Positions 1 through 4,445 of a stretch of DNA of 4,445 nt are shown piece after piece (position 1 is the first letter of the stretch; each line of letters begins with the position of its first letter). Source of the stretch: Escherichia coli (GTDB lineage Bacteria > Pseudomonadota > Gammaproteobacteria > Enterobacterales > Enterobacteriaceae); NCBI RefSeq assembly GCF_030384885.1, contig NZ_CP128616.1. One strand, written 5' to 3'. A program made the position numbers and the translations under genes. A model generated the notes under the pieces. The model was not told where the DNA came from. It was given only the letters and a program-made list of their open reading frames with translations, and searched no databases.

Positions 1-262
1 AACAGTGAGCCATGTAGATGGTTGGAATGGCCTTCCTCAATACGAAATCAGGGGAAATAAAATCTACAGGACAGTGAGCCATGTAGATGGTTGGAATGGT
101 CTTCCTCAATACGAAATCAGGGGAAATAAAATCTACAGGACAGTGAGCCATGTAGATGGTTGGAATGGTCTTCCTCAATACGAAATCAGGGGAAATAAAA
201 TCTACACAACAGTGAGTCATGTAAACGGTTGGAACGGTCTTCCGCAATATGAGATCAGATAA
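1..262 (+). CDS. 3' portion of a small tandem-repeat protein (5'-partial in window; appears to continue from 4426-4445 across a circular junction); hypothetical
   Basis: Frame is open from position 2 to TAA at 260-262. Encodes VSHVDGWNGLPQYEIRGNKIYRT three times plus a diverged shorter copy. Differences between copies are mostly synonymous (GGC/GGT, AGC/AGT, AAT/AAC, CCT/CCG, TAC/TAT, GAA/GAG, AGG/AGA) against two amino-acid changes (R to T, D to N), which argues for selection on the protein. Confidence 0.6.
   Translation, partial: TVSHVDGWNGLPQYEIRGNKIYRTVSHVDGWNGLPQYEIRGNKIYRTVSHVDGWNGLPQYEIRGNKIYTTVSHVNGWNGLPQYEIR
2..259 (+). repeat. 69-bp tandem direct repeat, about 3.7 copies (units starting at 2, 71, 140, 209); in-frame coding repeat
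   Basis: Units 1-3 are near-identical (one GGC/GGT difference); unit 4 has eight substitutions. 69 bp = 23 codons, so the repeat is in frame. Confidence 0.9.
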
Positions 263-294: not shown

Positions 295-324
295 ATTTAC
301 CATAACATCTGTATTGTACGCACC
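295..324 (-). other. cer-like XerC/XerD site-specific recombination core (plasmid multimer resolution site)
   Basis: Reverse complement of 295-324 is GGTGCGTACAA-tacagatg-TTATGGTAAAT. Both 11-bp arms match the ColE1 cer XerC and XerD arms as I recall them (GGTGCGTACAA / TTATGGTAAAT) with an 8-bp central region, as in cer. Confidence 0.8.
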
Positions 325-520
325 GTTAAAACGCGCTCAGCGCGATTCTGGCGCAAAAACCGTAAAAAGGGATGTTTTCCCCGGGGTAAACCGGAAAAAT
401 GCGTCAGGATTGTTTTCAGCGCGTTGCATGACTATGCATGAAACTGAATGGCAATCGATCCGGGCGCGTCCGCTGTCCCTGAGGCTTATTTTTGGCAGTT
501 TTCTTTCTGTCTGCGTCACA
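325..520. promoter_or_regulatory. Putative cer accessory region (ArgR/PepA side), with a candidate ARG-box-like dyad at 425-440
   Basis: Lies on the XerC-arm side of the core, where cer accessory sequences sit. tgcatgactatgcatg at 425-440 loosely resembles an ARG box (TNTGAATWWWWATTCANW). Extent and ARG box are inferred, not matched to a reference. Confidence 0.35.
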
Positions 521-558: not shown

Positions 559-780
559 CAGCCCACCATTAGCCCACACACAAAATACCGATGGGCACAC
601 CGATGTATCATAAAAATTTATCCGTTATATTTCATACAAATAAGAGGCCACCATCAGCCCACTCTATTAGCCCACAAAACGCCCACACTTTTGCTATCAC
701 TATGATTATCAATATAAAACCCACAAAAGTGGGCTGATGATGGGCTAACTGTGGGCGTAGAAGCCCATCATCAGCCCACC
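559..780. repeat. Array of GCCCAC/GTGGGC hexamer motifs (at least 9 copies) with AT-rich spacers and a perfect 17-bp inverted repeat (729-745 / 763-779)
   Basis: GCCCAC at 561, 572, 657, 670, 681, 773; GTGGGC at 729, 751; GCCCAT/ATGGGC variants at 740 and 763. Spacings of 11, 13, 11, 22, 22 bp. gtgggctgatgatgggc (729-745) is the exact reverse complement of gcccatcatcagcccac (763-779). Confidence 0.7.
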
Positions 781-1021: not shown

Positions 1022-1061
1022 GTAATTGTAATAGCGTCACGGGTGACGGTATTACAATTAC
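1022..1061. repeat. 19-bp near-perfect inverted repeat (palindrome) with 2-bp centre
   Basis: gtaattgtaatagcgtcac gg gtgacggtattacaattac; arms are reverse complements with one mismatch (G/G at 1034/1049). Confidence 0.8.
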
Positions 1062-1840: not shown

Positions 1841-1884
1841 AAATTGGGGGACAACCAGGACAGAACAAAGGCCGCGGCAGAGCC

Positions 1885-2440
1885 GTTTTTCCATAGGCTC
1901 CGCCCCCCTGACGAGCATCACAAAAACAGACGCTCAAGTCAGGGGGAGGCGAAACCCGACAGGACTATAAAGATACCAGGTGTTTCCCCCTGGAAGCTCC
2001 CTCGTGCGCTCTCCTGTTCCGACCCTGCCGCTTACCGGATACCTGTCCGCCTTTCTCCCTTCGGGAAGCGTGGCGCTTTCTCATAGCTCACGCTGTAGGT
2101 ATCTCAGTTCGGTGTAGGTCGTTCGCTCCAAGCTGGGCTGTGTGCACGAACCCCCCGTTCAGCCCGACCGCTGCGCCTTATCCGGTAACTATCGTCTTGA
2201 GTCCAACCCGGTAAGACACGACTTATCGCCACTGGCAGCAGCCACTGGTAACAGGATTAGCAGAGCGAGGTATGTAGGCGGTGCTACAGAGTTCTTGAAG
2301 TGGTGGCCTAACTACGGCTACACTGGAAGGACAGTATTTGGTATCTGCGCTCTGCTGAAGCCAGTTACCAGGTTAAGCAGTTCCCCAACTGACTTAACCT
2401 TCGAAAAACCGCCTCCCCAGGCGGTTTTTTCGTTTACAGA
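1885..2440 (-). ncRNA. RNAII replication primer precursor (ends approximate)
   Basis: RNAII promoter on the - strand: -35 TTGAGA (rc of 2469-2474), 17-bp spacer, -10 TAATCT (rc of 2446-2451), same hexamers as pBR322. 5' end placed about 2440 and 3' end about 555 nt downstream by analogy with ColE1. Confidence 0.75.
2331..2432 (+). ncRNA. RNAI antisense copy-number control RNA
   Basis: Begins ACAGTATTTGGTATCTGCGCTCTGCTGAAGCCAGTTACC as pBR322 RNAI. Upstream promoter -35 TTGAAG (2295-2300), 17-bp spacer, -10 CTACAC (2318-2323) as in pBR322. Terminator stem CCGCCT cccc AGGCGG followed by TTTTTT (2409-2430). Internal loop sequences differ from pMB1. Confidence 0.85.
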
Positions 2441-2512
2441 GCAAGAGATTACGCGTACAGAGCACGGATCTCAAGAAGATCGTAAGAAGAAAGTTAACAT
2501 GAGTGTTTTTAT

Positions 2513-2558
2513 CCCTCAAAAAGAAGGCTTCTATAAATAGAAGCCTTCTTTTTGAGGG
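2513..2558. terminator. 46-bp perfect palindrome / strong hairpin; likely bidirectional terminator between the higA 3' end and the RNAII promoter
   Basis: ccctcaaaaagaaggcttcta taaa tagaagccttctttttgaggg; 21-bp arms are exact reverse complements. T-rich sequence follows on the + strand; higA stop lies 26 bp away on the - strand. Confidence 0.65.
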
Positions 2559-2583
2559 ATAACTTATATTTTTTTAAAAAAAA

Positions 2584-2940
2584 TCATGCAATAGCATGTT
2601 TCTTCTCAGAATTATCAACAATGTGTTTCCTTTCTATGATTTCATGAGCGGGAATCACTCTGTCTATTTCTTCTTGCAATCGAGGGCTACTAGTAACCTC
2701 CCATAAATCAACAGACTGCTGTATATTTAGCCAGAACTTTGCAGTGGTATTGAAGGCTTTAGCCAACCTAAAAGCCATATCGGTAGACAGCTTTCTATTA
2801 TTGTTAACTAAAGCACTGGCAGAGTTTCTATGCACATTCAACATTTCAGCCAAGTCATTGATTTTTAAACCACTTGGTTCGAGATATTCATAAAGAATAA
2901 TATCCCCTACAGTTGATGGCTTTCTAGTTGCTTGGGACAT
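2584..2940 (-). CDS. higA: HigA-family antitoxin (XRE-type helix-turn-helix), 118 aa
   Basis: Translation ...TVGDIILYEYLEPSGLKINDLAEMLNVHRNSASALVNNNRKLSTDMAFRLAKAFNTTAKFWLNIQQSVDLW... has the pattern I recall for HigA/VapI antitoxins (PG.IL.EEFLEP.GL...LA..LGV.R......NG.R.I....A.RLA..FG.....WLNLQ). AGGAG sits 6 nt upstream of the ATG. Downstream of a HigB-family gene on the same strand. Confidence 0.85.
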   Translation of the reverse strand: MSQATRKPSTVGDIILYEYLEPSGLKINDLAEMLNVHRNSASALVNNNRKLSTDMAFRLAKAFNTTAKFWLNIQQSVDLWEVTSSPRLQEEIDRVIPAHEIIERKHIVDNSEKKHAIA

Positions 2941-3142
2941 GCTTTACTCCTAAATTTTTTACTTCTCTCTGTTAGATGAGGAAGATAAGTATTTCGTCTA
3001 TTACCAGCTGTAGCGATGAGTAATTATCTTAAATATAGTCACGTCATTTAGTTTATTAATCATTATTTGTAATGACATTTTAATGTAGGTGAGGGAACGC
3101 CTCACCTACTTGTTTTATAAGATAACAGCCACGACCTGTTAT
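2941..3142 (-). promoter_or_regulatory. higB-higA intergenic spacer (200 bp) with dyad elements; candidate independent higA promoter/operator
   Basis: Palindromes TCATTAtttgTAATGA (3060-3075) and GATAACAGccacgacCTGTTATC (3121-3143); - strand candidate -10 GATAAT; strong RBS for higA. No promoter has been demonstrated. Confidence 0.4.
3085..3109. terminator. Hairpin (10-bp perfect stem, 5-nt loop) inside the higB-higA spacer; terminator-like
   Basis: gtaggtgagg gaacg cctcacctac; followed on the + strand by TTGTTTTAT and on the - strand by A/U-rich sequence. Lies 33 nt downstream of the higB stop on the - strand. Confidence 0.5.
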
Positions 3143-3460
3143 CTATCGGTAATCATGTGGATCGAGATACAAATCCTCGATTCCGTTTTCACCCCACTTA
3201 AATATTAAGCGGTACTTCTCATTCACCCGTATGGATGAATACCCTGTCAATGGAGGGTTGAGATTCTCAAATCGGTTTCCCGGGGGAGACCGCAAATCTC
3301 CAACTTTATCAGCAGCATTCAGCATATCCAGCTTGCGACCTAATGAAGCACTAATCGCAGTTGGAATCTTTCGATTGGCTTTACCATATTTGTAAAACTG
3401 GTATAGCCAATCGTCTCGAAACTGAATGCGGCAATCATCATGTTCATGATCTTGCTGCAT
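3143..3460 (-). CDS. higB: HigB-family toxin (RelE/ParE superfamily, plasmid maintenance system killer type), 105 aa
   Basis: C-terminal region ...DLRSPPGNRFENLNPPLTGYSSIRVNEKYRLIFKWGENGIEDLYLDPHDYR matches the family signature I recall (DLRSPPGNRLE.L.G.R.GQ.SIR.N..WRL.F.W.......I.DYH). GAGGT RBS 9 nt upstream of the ATG. Toxin precedes antitoxin, as in hig loci. Confidence 0.85.
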   Translation of the reverse strand: MQQDHEHDDCRIQFRDDWLYQFYKYGKANRKIPTAISASLGRKLDMLNAADKVGDLRSPPGNRFENLNPPLTGYSSIRVNEKYRLIFKWGENGIEDLYLDPHDYR

Positions 3461-3646
3461 TTTTCTTTTACCTCAATTTTTGCCGCAACTTGGCAATTTT
3501 TTAGATCACCTTCTTACCTCCGATATAGTACAGCAAACACAAGAAATGCACAACAGCACAGTGCACTTGTGCAACCAATAACCATACTGTAGAATGCACC
3601 CACACACAGTGCAGATGTGCAAAATAGAGGGTAATTTGGAGGTTAC
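3461..3646. promoter_or_regulatory. Divergent promoter/operator region between higB (-) and the 80-aa ORF (+), with repeated TGCAC/GTGCA dyads
   Basis: Perfect palindrome TGCACttGTGCA (3562-3573), near-palindrome TGCAGatGTGCA (3610-3621) and further TGCAC copies at 3547 and 3595. Two copies of a roughly 19-bp repeat cacagtgca(c/g)(t/a)tgtgcaa (3557-3574, 3605-3622). Candidate higB promoter on the - strand: -35 TTGTGC (rc of 3548-3553), 17-bp spacer, -10 TACTAT (rc of 3525-3530). Candidate + strand promoter: -35 TTGTGC (3567-3572), 17 bp, -10 TAGAAT (3590-3595). Confidence 0.55.
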
Positions 3647-3889
3647 ATGGCTCTTGTTCGTTCAGGAAACAAAAGCAAGATTTTTGAAGCAGATAAGAAG
3701 TTTAACTCGGTTTTTGACACTGAATATCAGCCGGGAGAAACATGTAAATATGAAGGGATTTATAAATGTACCGGTTGCGGTAAAGAAGTAACTATCGCAG
3801 GTGGGAAAAAAATCCCACCACAAAACCACCACCAACATACCCCCGCGCAAGGGAACATTCGTTGGCAATTGTTTGTTTATGCTCAGTGA
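3647..3889 (+). CDS. Hypothetical small protein (80 aa) with Cys-x6-Cys-x2-Cys and a His-rich C-terminal segment; possible metal-binding or zinc-ribbon-like
   Basis: GGAGG RBS 4-5 nt upstream of the ATG; ORF starts right after the palindromic operator region, divergent from higB. Sequence ...CKYEGIYKCTGCGKEVTIAGGKKIPPQNHHQH.... No family recognised from memory. Confidence 0.55.
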   Translation: MALVRSGNKSKIFEADKKFNSVFDTEYQPGETCKYEGIYKCTGCGKEVTIAGGKKIPPQNHHQHTPAQGNIRWQLFVYAQ

Positions 3890-3899
3890 GGAATAGAAA

Positions 3900-4031
3900 A
3901 TGGCAGATCGTCGACCGCTCAACCCACACGTTGTCGTTCCTAAACCAGGCGGCGGAACTCAACCTCGTGACCGTAACAATGACGGAAGGGTCAGAGGAAA
4001 ACGCTCAGATGCAGGAAAGCCAAGAAAATAA
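3900..4031 (+). CDS. Possible small basic ORF (43 aa, MADRRPLNPHVVVPKPGGGTQPRDRNNDGRVRGKRSDAGKPRK); hypothetical
   Basis: GAGGA RBS 7 nt upstream of the ATG, beginning 11 nt after the stop of the 80-aa ORF; stop TAA at 4029-4031 lies just before an intrinsic terminator. Very short and low complexity, so coding status is uncertain. Confidence 0.3.
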   Translation: MADRRPLNPHVVVPKPGGGTQPRDRNNDGRVRGKRSDAGKPRK

Positions 4032-4035
4032 CAGC

Positions 4036-4064
4036 AAGCCGCCAGCCTGGCGGCTTTTTTATTT
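4036..4064 (+). terminator. Rho-independent terminator ending the 80-aa / 43-aa transcription unit
   Basis: aaGCCGCCAG cc CTGGCGGCtt stem followed by TTTTTTATTT. Confidence 0.75.
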
Positions 4065-4083
4065 ATATCTACAGCTGACACTG

Positions 4084-4099
4084 ATTTACCATAGCATCC
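4084..4099 (+). repeat. Copy 1 of a 16-bp motif ATTTACCATA(G/A)CATC(C/T) (XerD-arm-like)
   Basis: atttaccatagcatcc; 15/16 identical to 4365-4380 and 14/16 to 295-310 (the XerD arm plus adjacent central bases of the cer-like site). Lies 33 nt upstream of the 4132 start codon. Confidence 0.7.
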
Positions 4100-4131
4100 A
4101 CTGTATCTACTCAGTCTTGATAGGTGTTTTT

Positions 4132-4335
4132 ATGAGTAATGAATTAGACAGCCTTTCAGAAGTAGTTAAAGGACTCACAAAGATAGAGCTGCCTGGCGGC
4201 GGTGGCGGTGAAACCGATAGCCCTGTAGTTGAGGCAGCTATAGCTGTTGGCATTGTAGGGGCTGCTGCATATGGGATTTATAAGCTTTTTGGTCGCGCAG
4301 AACCCCAGAAAGATGAGGACAAACTCGGTTTCTAG
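4132..4335 (+). CDS. Hypothetical small membrane peptide (67 aa): acidic N-terminal segment, Gly5 run, one predicted transmembrane helix
   Basis: ATG at 4132 preceded by AGGTG; translation MSNELDSLSEVVKGLTKIELPGGGGGETDSPVVEAAIAVGIVGAAAYGIYKLFGRAEPQKDEDKLGF. The longer track ORF 3862-4335 is rejected because it spans the terminator at 4036-4064. Confidence 0.6.
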   Translation: MSNELDSLSEVVKGLTKIELPGGGGGETDSPVVEAAIAVGIVGAAAYGIYKLFGRAEPQKDEDKLGF

Positions 4336-4364
4336 AACCATAAGGCAGCATCAAAACGGCATTC

Positions 4365-4380
4365 ATTTACCATAACATCC
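4365..4380 (+). repeat. Copy 2 of the 16-bp motif ATTTACCATAACATCC (exact XerD-arm match, no convincing XerC arm)
   Basis: Reverse complement reads ...ggatg TTATGGTAAAT. The 11-bp arm is identical to the cer XerD arm; the flanking candidate XerC arm matches cer at only about 5 of 11 positions. Lies 46 nt upstream of the ATG at 4426. Confidence 0.7.
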
Positions 4381-4425
4381 GTTAACTGCGGCCTTGTCAT
4401 AAAAGAAATGGATATTGGAGACAAT

Positions 4426-4445
4426 ATGAGCAATAAGATCTATAG
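4426..4445 (+). CDS. 5' end of the tandem-repeat protein gene (3'-partial in window; continues in frame at position 1 if the molecule is circular)
   Basis: ATG at 4426 with GGAG 6 nt upstream; encodes MSNKIY then R from the junction codon (4444-4445 plus position 1), followed by TVSHVDGW... at 2 onward. The repeat unit sequence itself continues across the junction (aataagatctatag|a versus aataaaatctacagga). Confidence 0.6.

What the first reader, a model, noticed from the sequence alone, without database searches (positions are those of the whole stretch)
4084..4445. A 16-bp XerD-arm-like motif occurs three times in direct orientation, bracketing the two small genes like cassette boundaries
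ATTTACCATA(A/G)CATC(C/T) occurs at 4084-4099, 4365-4380 and 295-310. The third copy is the XerD arm plus adjacent central bases of the bona fide cer-like site; the other two keep the XerD arm (10/11 and 11/11) and the adjacent GGATG but have poor XerC arms. The membrane-peptide gene lies between copies 1 and 2, and the repeat-protein gene between copies 2 and 3. Either these are relics of Xer-mediated module acquisition (comparable to Xer-site-bounded modules described on some plasmids) or a shared promoter/operator element.
Basis: partly seen in the sequence, partly recalled or inferred. Interest (0 to 1): 0.65.

Follow-up and report, generated by a model that had tools for sequence, protein, structure and literature searches.

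The report
Xer-site junctions bounding two acquired genes
The thrice-repeated 16-base motif is the XerD half of a plasmid Xer recombination site, and comparison with other plasmids shows each copy marks a point where DNA was swapped, so the two small genes between them were acquired as separate units, a variant of a known way that plasmids pick up genes.

Summary
ATTTACCATARCATCY occurs three times, all on the + strand (0.15 expected by chance). The window is a whole circular 4.4-kb ColE1-type plasmid of E. coli O111.

Copy 3 (295) is the core of a complete cer site. Copies 1 and 2 keep the XerD arm and centre, but their right arms are only residually XerC-like.

Every copy is a homology breakpoint:
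- About 40 plasmids match up to base 4099 and then carry a full Xer site with no insert.
- pGCUET01-3 carries the repeat-protein unit alone, starting in copy 2's core behind a different XerD arm.
- Homologues of the membrane-peptide unit sit between directly oriented XerD arms in four other unrelated contexts, always with the same left boundary.

So the "relics of Xer-mediated acquisition" reading is supported. The promoter/operator reading is not.

The most likely mechanism is XerCD crossover in the 6-bp centre between co-resident plasmids. This differs from Acinetobacter dif modules, which have complete sites in inverted orientation, and from chromosomal IMEX elements.

The arrays are not general: none appeared in six distinct randomly sampled ColE1 plasmids. 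XerCD catalysis is inferred, not shown.

Verdict: a new variant of a known kind, of moderate interest.

The parts
4084..4111 (.). Internal Xer-type site 1 (motif copy 1), written XerD to XerC on the + strand: XerD arm ATTTACCATAG (4084-4094), centre CATCCA (4095-4100), degenerate XerC-like arm CTGTATCTACT (4101-4111).
   Evidence: About 40 relatives end their homology at 4099 and carry a full site there. The right arm scores -0.31 bits, which is in the top 8% of random sequence. The right arm and the downstream DNA travel with the gene in L012, L018, L025 and L030.
4132..4335 (+). Unit 1 cargo: a 67-aa membrane peptide (conserved core ELPGGGGGETDSPVVEAAIAVGIVGAAAYGIYKLF).
   Evidence: Homologues are 66-96% identical, with dN/dS of 0.22-0.50. 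There is no match in Pfam, NCBIfam, PADLOC or PHROGs.
4365..4392 (.). Internal Xer-type site 2 (motif copy 2): XerD arm ATTTACCATAA (4365-4375), centre CATCCG (4376-4381), degenerate XerC-like arm TTAACTGCGGC (4382-4392).
   Evidence: Against L032 the left flank is 13/70 identical and the right flank 53/54. Against L012 the left flank is 55/70 and the right flank 18/54.
4426..4445 (+). Unit 2 cargo, 5' part: start of the 93-aa repeat-protein gene, which continues at base 1 of the circular plasmid.
   Evidence: A GGAG ribosome-binding site lies 6 nt upstream of the ATG.
1..262 (+). Unit 2 cargo, 3' part: four 23-aa repeats (KIYRTVSHVDGWNGLPQYEIRGN; 69-bp DNA repeats) and the stop codon.
   Evidence: The + frame stays open in the 82%-identical L008 homologue while the antisense frame does not, and codon differences are 34 synonymous against 10 non-synonymous.
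295..324 (.). Core of the working cer-type site (motif copy 3): XerD arm ATTTACCATAA (295-305), 8-bp centre CATCTGTA (306-313), XerC arm TTGTACGCACC (314-324).
   Evidence: More than 150 E. coli plasmids begin matching the window at base 295.
325..520 (.). cer accessory sequences on the XerC side, including an ArgR-box-like TGCATGACTATGCATGAA at about 425-442. The right-hand limit is approximate.
   Evidence: Near-identity to the accessory DNA of ColE1-type cer sites in L007, L009 and L155-L162. The box was identified by reading the sequence and from knowledge of cer.
4036..4056 (+). Intrinsic terminator that closes the upstream gene block, 28 bp before copy 1. A 'gene, terminator, about 20 bp, XerD arm' layout recurs in other arrays.
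   Evidence: and the contexts listed.

Best explanation
The three motif copies are the XerD-binding arm plus the first bases of the central region of Xer recombination sites, all in one orientation. Copy 3 belongs to the plasmid's working cer site, which has a good XerC arm and ArgR/PepA accessory DNA. Copies 1 and 2 are hybrid junction sites left by earlier crossovers.

In each junction site, the XerD arm and centre come from the site that was resident in the plasmid. The DNA to the right, beginning with a weak XerC-like arm, came in with the gene. Each unit therefore has the structure [weak XerC arm, gene, XerD arm + centre]. Two successive acquisitions at the XerD side of cer give the observed order: D, x, gene 1, D, y, gene 2, D, C.

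The most likely route is XerCD-mediated crossover within the 6-bp centre (CATCCG/CATCTG) between co-resident plasmids, that is, cointegrate formation at one pair of sites and resolution at another. Simple insertion of a free circle is less likely.

The asymmetry follows from selection. A unit's XerD arm becomes part of the working cer whenever the unit is last in the array, so it is kept intact. The unit's XerC-side arm is never needed for dimer resolution, so it decays. That decay, together with the ATAA-to-ATAG change in copy 1, lowers the chance that the units are deleted.

Shown here: the copies exist, they are Xer cores, every copy is a homology breakpoint, the two units occur independently elsewhere, and the boundaries are reused. 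Inferred: catalysis by XerC/XerD, the cointegrate route, XerD occupancy of copies 1 and 2, and the selection argument.
For: - **Copies are non-random:** three matches (0 mismatches each) against 0.15 expected.
- **Copy 3 is a full cer:**
- **Empty site at copy 1:** seen in about 40 relatives; homology ends at 4099 and a complete XerD/6-bp/XerC site is present.
- **Unit 2 alone:** in L032 and L033 it starts in the core of copy 2, with a different XerD arm and different upstream DNA.
- **Unit 1 homologues bracketed:** they lie between direct XerD arms in five independent contexts, the window included. The alignment shows no homology left of the left arm, homology from the XerC-like arm (YTRTATCYACT) through the gene to the right arm and centre, and none beyond.
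- **The weak arm is old and still usable:** it is conserved among units whose synonymous divergence is 0.3 to saturation, so it was already degenerate during at least five changes of context.
- **Residual XerC-likeness:** combined p = 0.0024 over 11 internal sites.
- **Copy 3 is also a breakpoint:** identical arrays are followed by three different XerC arms and backbones.
- **The architecture recurs:** it also appears in L008, L016 and L099.
- **Shared centres:** most sites involved have CATCCG or CATCTG, whereas unrelated cer sites have other centres. This fits Xer's need for matching centres.
- **No precise empty version of this backbone exists**, which favours exchange between different plasmids.
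- **Literature:** Xer and oriT crossovers are an accepted source of ColE1 plasmid mosaicism, and the cointegrate route has been demonstrated for Acinetobacter.
Against: - No experiment here shows XerC or XerD binding to, or cutting, copies 1 and 2.
- Their right arms are individually no better than the top 8% of random sequence. Several internal sites elsewhere (L008, L016, L018 position 2240) show no XerC-likeness at all, which is hard to reconcile with a canonical XerC-first reaction.
- cer-type recombination is normally restricted to sites within one molecule that carry accessory sequences, so exchange between plasmids must be rare or use another control.
- Six of eleven distinct contexts of the membrane-peptide gene are not bracketed by XerD arms.
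- Six distinct randomly sampled ColE1 plasmids have no internal arms, so this is not a general property of the replicon.
- Most supporting contexts were found through homologues of gene 1, which is a biased sample.
Confidence: 0.72

Rival explanations
1. Active, integron-like cassettes. Each unit excises as a small circle by XerCD recombination between its two directly repeated sites, then re-inserts into the Xer site of another plasmid, as IMEX elements do at dif. The arrays would then be current capture platforms rather than leftovers of plasmid-plasmid exchange.
For: The sites are directly oriented and share centres (CATCCG), the geometry that permits excision. The boundaries of unit 1 are the same in five contexts and those of unit 2 in two. 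The left site in L030 keeps the inner ATAA-centre-TTAT motif that one search reports as critical.
Against: No plasmid was found that differs from the window only by lacking a unit. Whenever a boundary is seen, the partner on the other side is a different backbone. The XerC arms are very weak. A non-replicating circle of 281-375 bp would need efficient recapture. In Acinetobacter, excision of xrs-bounded cassettes was tested and not seen, whereas cointegrates were.
Confidence: 0.2
2. Short-homology, RecA-dependent or replication-slippage recombination. The conserved 16-22 bp (XerD arm plus centre) simply provides a patch of identity where general recombination between plasmids happens to cross over. 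No Xer catalysis would be involved at copies 1 and 2.
For: The only sequence shared at the junctions is this 16-22-bp patch. The right arms are poor XerC sites. Multicopy plasmids offer many opportunities for such events.
Against: Patches this short are at or below the length usually needed for efficient homologous recombination (established knowledge). The junctions all lie at Xer cores, in cer orientation, on the XerD side of cer. The right arms retain XerC-likeness in aggregate (p = 0.0024). In L032 the crossover lies between position 6 of the XerD arm and the first base of the right arm, which includes the centre where Xer exchanges strands.
Confidence: 0.06
3. The motif is a shared promoter or operator for the two small genes. 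For example, XerD or another protein might bind it to control transcription.
For: The motif lies at a fixed 46-49 nt upstream of the start codon in all bracketed membrane-peptide units. A promoter embedded in a cer core is known for the EcoRI restriction-modification operon and for Pcer. A terminator upstream of copy 1 means gene 1 needs its own promoter.
Against: The scan finds no sigma-70-like site on either strand of 3600-4445. With TTTACC taken as a -35 element, the only -10-like hexamers are 12-13 nt away. The known cer-core promoter depends on the TTAAGG centre and reads outward across the XerD arm, which is the opposite direction to these genes. The fixed distance is equally predicted by the unit structure. 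The motif also lies downstream of genes and is a homology breakpoint, which a promoter element would not explain.
Confidence: 0.03
4. The copies arose by chance or by simple local duplication of a short segment.
For: None beyond the repeat itself.
Against: 0 of 200 shuffles give three matches. The flanks are unrelated. The same 11-mer recurs 2-4 times on one strand in unrelated plasmids.
Confidence: 0.01

Closest known systems
ColE1 cer and related plasmid multimer-resolution sites (mwr, psi): XerCD sites with ArgR/PepA accessory sequences
   Same: Copy 3 is such a site: XerC arm TTGTACGCACC, XerD arm ATTTACCATAA and ColE1-like accessory DNA. Copies 1 and 2 carry the same XerD arm, and their centre (CATCCG/CATCTG) resembles, from my memory, the mwr centre CAGATG.
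   Different: Copies 1 and 2 have no recognisable XerC arm (about -0.3 bits against at least 12.5) and no accessory sequences. They are followed directly by genes. A published survey of enterobacterial plasmids reported that all Xer sites on small plasmids had accessory sequences, so internal sites of this kind were not part of that picture.
Model of small-plasmid evolution by site-specific recombination at Xer and oriT sites (Tran et al. 2012; Zakharova et al. 2002), cited
   Same: Homology between ColE1-type plasmids breaks at the Xer core, implying cointegrate formation and resolution by host XerCD.
   Different: Those models exchange large plasmid segments between one Xer site and oriT. 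Here there are several Xer-type cores in tandem on the XerD side of cer, bounding units of 281-375 bp that each hold one small gene. I could not read the 2012 paper itself.
Acinetobacter dif (pdif) modules
   Same: These are gene units bounded by XerC/XerD-type sites, found in different plasmid backbones, lacking any recombinase of their own, and probably moved through cointegrates.
   Different: dif modules have complete 28-bp sites, alternate in orientation (each single module is flanked by inverted sites, often with different centres), sit on Rep_3 plasmids, and are described as found uniquely in Acinetobacter. Here the sites are all direct, share centres, have decayed XerC arms, and lie next to a cer on enterobacterial ColE1 plasmids.
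IMEX: integrative mobile elements exploiting Xer (CTX-phi, TLC-phi, VGJ-phi, gonococcal genetic island)
   Same: These elements lack an integrase and end up flanked by directly repeated Xer-type sites, one of them degenerate, which limits excision. They can stack in arrays.
   Different: IMEX elements are phages or islands several kilobases long that integrate at chromosomal dif. The degenerate part is typically the XerD side or the centre. Here the units are sub-kilobase single genes at a plasmid cer, and the degenerate part is the XerC arm.
Integron gene cassettes
   Same: Both form arrays of promoter-poor single-gene units, each carrying one recombination site, stacked in one orientation beside a primary site.
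   Different: The window has no IntI integrase and no attC or attI sites. Its sites are Xer-type and the recombinase would be the host's XerCD.

Membership tests
cer-type XerCD plasmid resolution site | 11-bp XerD-binding arm (TTATGGTAAAT or TTATGTTAAAT type) | tested here: met
   Copy 1 matches 10/11; copies 2 and 3 match 11/11.
cer-type XerCD plasmid resolution site | 11-bp XerC-binding arm (GGTGC-rich outer part) placed 6-8 bp from the XerD arm | tested here: not met
   Met only by copy 3 (TTGTACGCACC, 15.3 bits). Copies 1 and 2 score -0.31 and -0.34 bits, against 12.5-16 for nine full sites. Copies 1 and 2 are therefore not filed as cer sites.
cer-type XerCD plasmid resolution site | About 180 bp of accessory sequence with an ArgR box on the XerC side | tested here: not met
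   Copy 3 has it: 49/54 identity to a ColE1-type cer flank, plus the TGCATGACTATGCATGAA box. Copies 1 and 2 are followed by a ribosome-binding site and a gene.
cer-type XerCD plasmid resolution site | XerCD-, ArgR- and PepA-dependent resolution of plasmid dimers | not testable with these tools
   This needs in vivo resolution assays.
Acinetobacter dif (pdif) module | The module is bounded on both sides by complete 28-bp XerC/6-bp/XerD sites | tested here: not met
   The internal sites lack a competent XerC arm.
Acinetobacter dif (pdif) module | The sites flanking a single module are inversely oriented (C/D alternating with D/C) | tested here: not met
   All three copies are on the + strand, as are the arrays in L012, L018, L016, L025 and L030.
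Acinetobacter dif (pdif) module | The same module is found in different plasmid backbones, with boundaries at the sites | tested here: met
   Unit 2 occurs in the window family and in L032/L033. Unit 1 homologues occur in five contexts.
IMEX (integrative mobile element exploiting Xer) | No recombinase of its own; flanked by directly repeated Xer-type sites after integration | tested here: met
   No recombinase ORF or family match was found in the window. The sites are directly repeated.
IMEX (integrative mobile element exploiting Xer) | Integrates at the chromosomal dif site | tested here: not met
   All 264 matching places in complete E. coli genomes are on plasmids and none on chromosomes. 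The array abuts a plasmid cer.
IMEX (integrative mobile element exploiting Xer) | Integration shown to depend on XerC and/or XerD | not testable with these tools
   This needs genetics in xerC and xerD mutants.
Integron cassette array | IntI integrase gene with attI, and attC sites on the cassettes | tested here: not met
   The 4445-bp plasmid has no integrase-like ORF, and the boundaries are Xer cores.

The most novel reading that the evidence does not exclude
Enterobacterial ColE1-type plasmids with CATCYG-centred Xer sites may host a recombinase-less, integron-like capture system. In it, tiny single-gene units each carry a strong XerD arm and a deliberately weak XerC arm. Host XerCD recombines these units, still today, into direct arrays on the XerD side of cer. 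The last unit donates its XerD arm to the working cer, and the weak arms throttle excision.
Probability: 0.25. Interest if true: 0.75.

Novelty: new variant of a known kind. Interest (0 to 1): 0.58.

Why it matters
Xer sites are known crossover points in small plasmids, and Xer-bounded 'dif modules' are treated as a speciality of Acinetobacter.

Here the same host recombination system appears to have assembled direct arrays of sub-kilobase, single-gene units next to the cer site of E. coli, Klebsiella and Enterobacter ColE1 plasmids. It did so using sites whose XerC arm is almost unrecognisable, yet these sites were reused as boundaries several times.

If confirmed, three things follow:
- Gene capture by very small, non-mobilisable plasmids can proceed through sites that current Xer-site searches discard.
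- Very weak XerC arms would be shown to suffice for recombination on evolutionary time scales.
- The question could be tested in E. coli, the organism where Xer genetics and biochemistry are best developed.

It also flags two uncharacterised but conserved small proteins as the cargo, and shows that current RefSeq annotation of this region is probably wrong.

Tried and rejected
1. **Metagenome scan for pairs of XerD arms 340-370 bp apart.** It says nothing about how general the arrays are. Only L099 was relevant.
3. **Synthetic 'empty' junction** (left flank of copy 1 joined to the window's own cer), searched in PLSDB and in complete E. coli genomes. No record covers it, so no precise excision or insertion partner of this backbone is known.
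4. **Promoter hypothesis.** No consensus promoter was found, and hexamer spacings checked by eye do not fit.
5. **Function of the cargo.** NCBIfam, PADLOC, PHROGs and Pfam gave nothing significant for either small protein.
6. **Contexts of distant repeat-protein homologues.** These are chromosomal, defence-island-like neighbourhoods. They were not scanned for XerD arms and say nothing about the plasmid architecture.
7. **Unbiased sample of 8 E. coli ColE1 records (6 distinct plasmids) chosen only by cer similarity.** None had a same-strand internal XerD arm, so I rejected the idea that arrays are a general feature of ColE1 plasmids.
8. **Tran et al. 2012** could not be read. Its content is taken from papers that cite it.
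9. **Local duplication** was rejected because the flanks of the copies are unrelated.
Full report
**1. The observation**

The pattern ATTTACCATARCATCY, searched with up to three mismatches allowed, finds exactly three sites, each with 0 mismatches and all on the + strand. They lie at 295-310, 4084-4099 and 4365-4380. Dinucleotide-preserving shuffles give a mean of 0.15 matches, and none of 200 shuffles reaches three.

The window is a complete circular plasmid. An ORF starting at ATG 4426 runs off the end and continues in frame at base 1 to a stop at 260-262. The window is also about 99% identical to the circular 4468-bp plasmid p08_4377-3 of E. coli O111. RNAI at 2333-2433 identifies a ColE1-type replicon.

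The 67-aa membrane-peptide gene (4132-4335) lies between copies 1 and 2. The 93-aa repeat-protein gene (4426-4445 plus 1-262) lies between copies 2 and 3. Similarity between the copies does not extend beyond about 16-21 nt, so they are not a local duplication.

**2. What the copies are**

Copy 3 is the XerD arm and the start of the centre of a complete site, ATTTACCATAA|CATCTGTA|TTGTACGCACC (295-324). The DNA that follows is nearly identical to the accessory sequences of ColE1-type cer sites in other plasmids, with 49/54 identity in the first 54 nt and an ArgR-box-like TGCATGACTATGCATGAA at about 425-442. From memory, the core seen in L007, L008 and L009 is the reverse complement of the ColE1 cer core GGTGCGTACAATTAAGGGATTATGGTAAAT.

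Copies 1 and 2 keep the XerD arm (10/11 and 11/11) and a CATCC(A/G) centre. A weight matrix built from nine distinct full XerC arms in the collected plasmids scores their right arms at -0.31 and -0.34 bits. Working arms score 12.5-16 bits. Each of the two lies in about the top 8% of random sequence.

Over 11 independent internal sites of this kind, the residual XerC-likeness is significant only in aggregate (Fisher combined p = 0.0024). Some sites have none at all.

**3. Every copy is a homology breakpoint**

*Copy 1.* About 40 plasmids of roughly 4.78 kb from Enterobacter, Klebsiella and Citrobacter, and one 3.2-kb plasmid, match window 1868-4099 at about 95% identity and stop at the last base of copy 1. 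At that position they carry a complete site, ATTTACCATAA|CATCCG|TTGGGCGCACC or TTGCCCGCACC, followed by cer-like DNA. That is an empty site.

*Copy 2.* In pGCUET01-3 and p98208, which are plasmids carrying a NACHT NTPase gene, the repeat-protein unit is present without the membrane-peptide unit. Left of the core the sequence is unrelated (13/70 identity) and the XerD arm is a different, dif-type one (TTTTAACATAA). From CATCCG TTAACTGCGGC onward the sequence is 53/54 identical. Conversely, the food-metagenome plasmid L012 shares the left flank of copy 2 (55/70) but not the right flank (18/54).

*Copy 3.* Plasmids carrying the identical array continue after the centre with three different XerC arms and backbones (window, L002, L004). 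More than 150 E. coli plasmids begin to match the window at base 295.

The crossovers map between position 6 of the XerD arm and the first base of the right arm. That interval includes the centre, where Xer exchanges strands.

**4. The units recur independently**

Homologues of the membrane peptide (66-96% identical) were traced to eleven distinct contexts. In five of them (the window family, L012, L018, L025 and L030/L031) the gene lies between two directly oriented XerD arms. The left arm is always 46-49 nt upstream of the ATG.

An alignment of these five units with their flanks shows the following:
- There is no similarity left of the left arm.
- Similarity begins at the XerC-arm position (CTGTATCTACT, CTATATCCACT, TTGTATCCACT, CTGCATCTGAT, TTATATCAATT).
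- It runs through the gene to the right XerD arm and centre.
- It then stops.

The neighbours differ in every case. On the left they include a zinc-ribbon operon terminator, other small genes and a PvuII restriction-modification system. On the right they include the repeat-protein unit, another small-gene unit or a full cer.

The gene is under purifying selection (dN/dS 0.22-0.50), with synonymous divergence from 0.33 to saturation. The weak left arm is therefore old, and it was already weak while the unit changed context at least five times. This is the best argument that such weak sites still recombine.

The same layout is seen with other cargo in L008, L016, L018, L012 and L099. That layout is a gene or genes, a terminator, about 20 bp, a XerD arm, then a non-XerC right arm, all upstream of a full site.

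**5. Limits on generality**

Six of the eleven membrane-peptide contexts are not bracketed (L007/L009, L010/L011, L014/L015, L016/L017, L026-L028 and L029). Most of the supporting loci were found through that gene, which biases the sample.

In an unbiased sample of eight E. coli ColE1 records (six distinct plasmids), chosen only because their cer matches the window's, each had one full site and no same-strand internal XerD arm.

A metagenome scan for arm pairs was swamped by AT-rich noise.

No plasmid joins the left flank of copy 1 to the window's own cer. No precise gain or loss partner of this backbone is therefore known.

**6. Mechanism**

The structure D, x, gene 1, D, y, gene 2, D, C is what results if units of the form [weak XerC arm, gene, XerD arm + centre] are added one after another at the XerD side of the resident site. 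Each added unit supplies the XerD arm of the new working cer.

Most of the sites involved share CATCCG or CATCTG centres, whereas unrelated cer sites have other centres. This matches the requirement for matching centres in Xer recombination.

Boundaries are always seen against a different XerC-side partner, and no precise empty version of this backbone exists. I therefore favour cointegrate formation and resolution between co-resident plasmids over free-circle insertion. The cointegrate route has been shown experimentally for Acinetobacter plasmids.

The asymmetry between intact XerD arms and decayed XerC arms follows if only the XerD arm of a unit is ever recruited into a site that is selected for dimer resolution. 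The ATAA-to-ATAG change in copy 1 touches the inner ATAA-centre-TTAT motif that one search reports as critical. It is present in all array-bearing plasmids but absent from the empty sites, which is consistent with locking the unit in place.

All catalytic steps are inferred. Nothing here shows XerC or XerD acting on copies 1 and 2.

**7. Alternatives**

*Promoter or operator.* No sigma-70-like site is found on either strand of 3600-4445. The known cer-core promoter depends on a TTAAGG centre and reads outward across the XerD arm, which is opposite to these genes. A promoter element would also not explain the breakpoints.

*Short-homology general recombination at the 16-22-bp patch.* This cannot be excluded. 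It fits poorly with the consistent placement and orientation of the junctions and with the residual XerC-likeness of the right arms.

*Chance or local duplication.* Both are excluded.

**8. Comparison with known systems**

Xer sites as crossover points in ColE1-type plasmids are established.

Acinetobacter dif modules are the closest named system. They have complete sites in alternating orientation and are described as unique to that genus.

IMEX elements share the direct, partly degenerate flanking sites. They are kilobase-scale elements that integrate at chromosomal dif.

A survey of enterobacterial replicons reported that all Xer sites on small plasmids have accessory sequences, so internal sites like copies 1 and 2 were not captured there.

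I found no description of direct arrays of single-gene units bounded by sites with an intact XerD arm and a degenerate XerC arm on ColE1 plasmids in the searchable library. That library omits most subscription journals.

**Verdict**

This is a new variant of a known kind, of moderate interest.

Noticed in passing
window 4426-4445 + 1-262; L008, L032, L033; L019-L024: The repeat protein consists of four 23-aa repeats (KIYRTVSHVDGWNGLPQYEIRGN) and matches no family in Pfam, NCBIfam, PADLOC or PHROGs. Repeat number varies between plasmids: four in the window and L032, one in L033. Database relatives are 52-163 aa long. Distant homologues sit next to OLD-type TOPRIM/HNH genes or RelA-SpoT/HipA genes in environmental contigs, which hints at a role linked to defence or toxins.
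   Followed up: partly
window 4132-4335; L009 4792-5004; L030 3501-3674: The membrane peptide belongs to a conserved, unnamed family with a variable N-terminus, the motif (E/D)(L/I)PGGGG, and a Gly/Ala-rich helix. The N-terminal part loosely resembles a double-glycine bacteriocin leader, and some homologues sit on colicin- or pyocin-type plasmids. In L009 and L030 the ORF reads into the XerD arm of cer and uses the arm's final TAA as its stop codon.
   Followed up: partly
L034 3546-3872; L002 1788-2114 and 2142-2648 (corresponding to window ~4009-4335 and the unit 2 region): RefSeq annotation here looks wrong. The membrane-peptide gene is called as a 108-aa ORF that starts upstream of the terminator and reads through Xer copy 1, whereas homology and the ribosome-binding site support the 67-aa version. 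In L002 an antisense 168-aa ORF is annotated across the repeat gene and two Xer cores, but that frame is broken in the 82%-identical L008 homologue while the sense frame stays open (34 synonymous against 10 non-synonymous codon changes).
   Followed up: yes
window 560-779: An 18-nt motif, AGCCCAYCATYAGCCCAC, occurs three times directly (560, 645, 762) and also inverted (729-746). This gives iteron-like or operator-like repeats between cer and rop. No function was assigned.
   Followed up: no
window 1022-1061 and 1047-1075/1210-1238: There is a near-perfect 19-bp palindrome (GTAATTGTAATAGCGTCAC/GTGACGGTATTACAATTAC), and a 29-nt inverted repeat whose arms flank 134 bp. This may be an oriT or bom remnant or a single-strand initiation structure in a plasmid that lacks mob genes.
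   Followed up: no
window 2509-2562: A perfect 26-bp palindrome with T and A runs sits at the border between the replicon and the accessory region, just beyond the end of higA. It looks like a bidirectional terminator or insulator.
   Followed up: no
window 2584-3622: The higB-like toxin gene (3143-3460, minus strand) and higA (2584-2940, minus strand) are separated by about 200 bp containing a hairpin at roughly 3089-3113, which is unusual for a toxin-antitoxin operon. A 22-nt sequence is repeated just upstream of each gene (2953-2974 and 3495-3516). Two 30-nt direct repeats with internal dyad symmetry (3545-3574 and 3593-3622) lie between higB and the divergent 80-aa zinc-ribbon ORF and are probably operators.
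   Followed up: no
L099 5681-6080: A mobilisable ColE1-type metagenome contig carries two dif-type sites 370 bp apart in direct orientation with identical centres (gagttc). The first has right arm GGTCACGCACC. The second has TTGGGCGCACC plus accessory DNA. This is another internal-site-plus-working-site pair, here with a fairly good XerC arm.
   Followed up: partly
all collected Xer sites: Sites associated with arrays mostly share CATCCG or CATCTG centres. Single-site ColE1 plasmids sampled at random have other centres (tcccttaa, cgtcgca, catcagt, gagttcaa, tcccgta). Centre sequence may define compatibility groups for exchange between plasmids.
   Followed up: partly
window ~1866: Relative to p08_4377-3, the window lacks a 25-bp segment (ATGTGAGCAAAAGAGCACATACAAA) close to the replication origin. 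It also carries a small cluster of changes at 747-761 within the repeat region.
   Followed up: no
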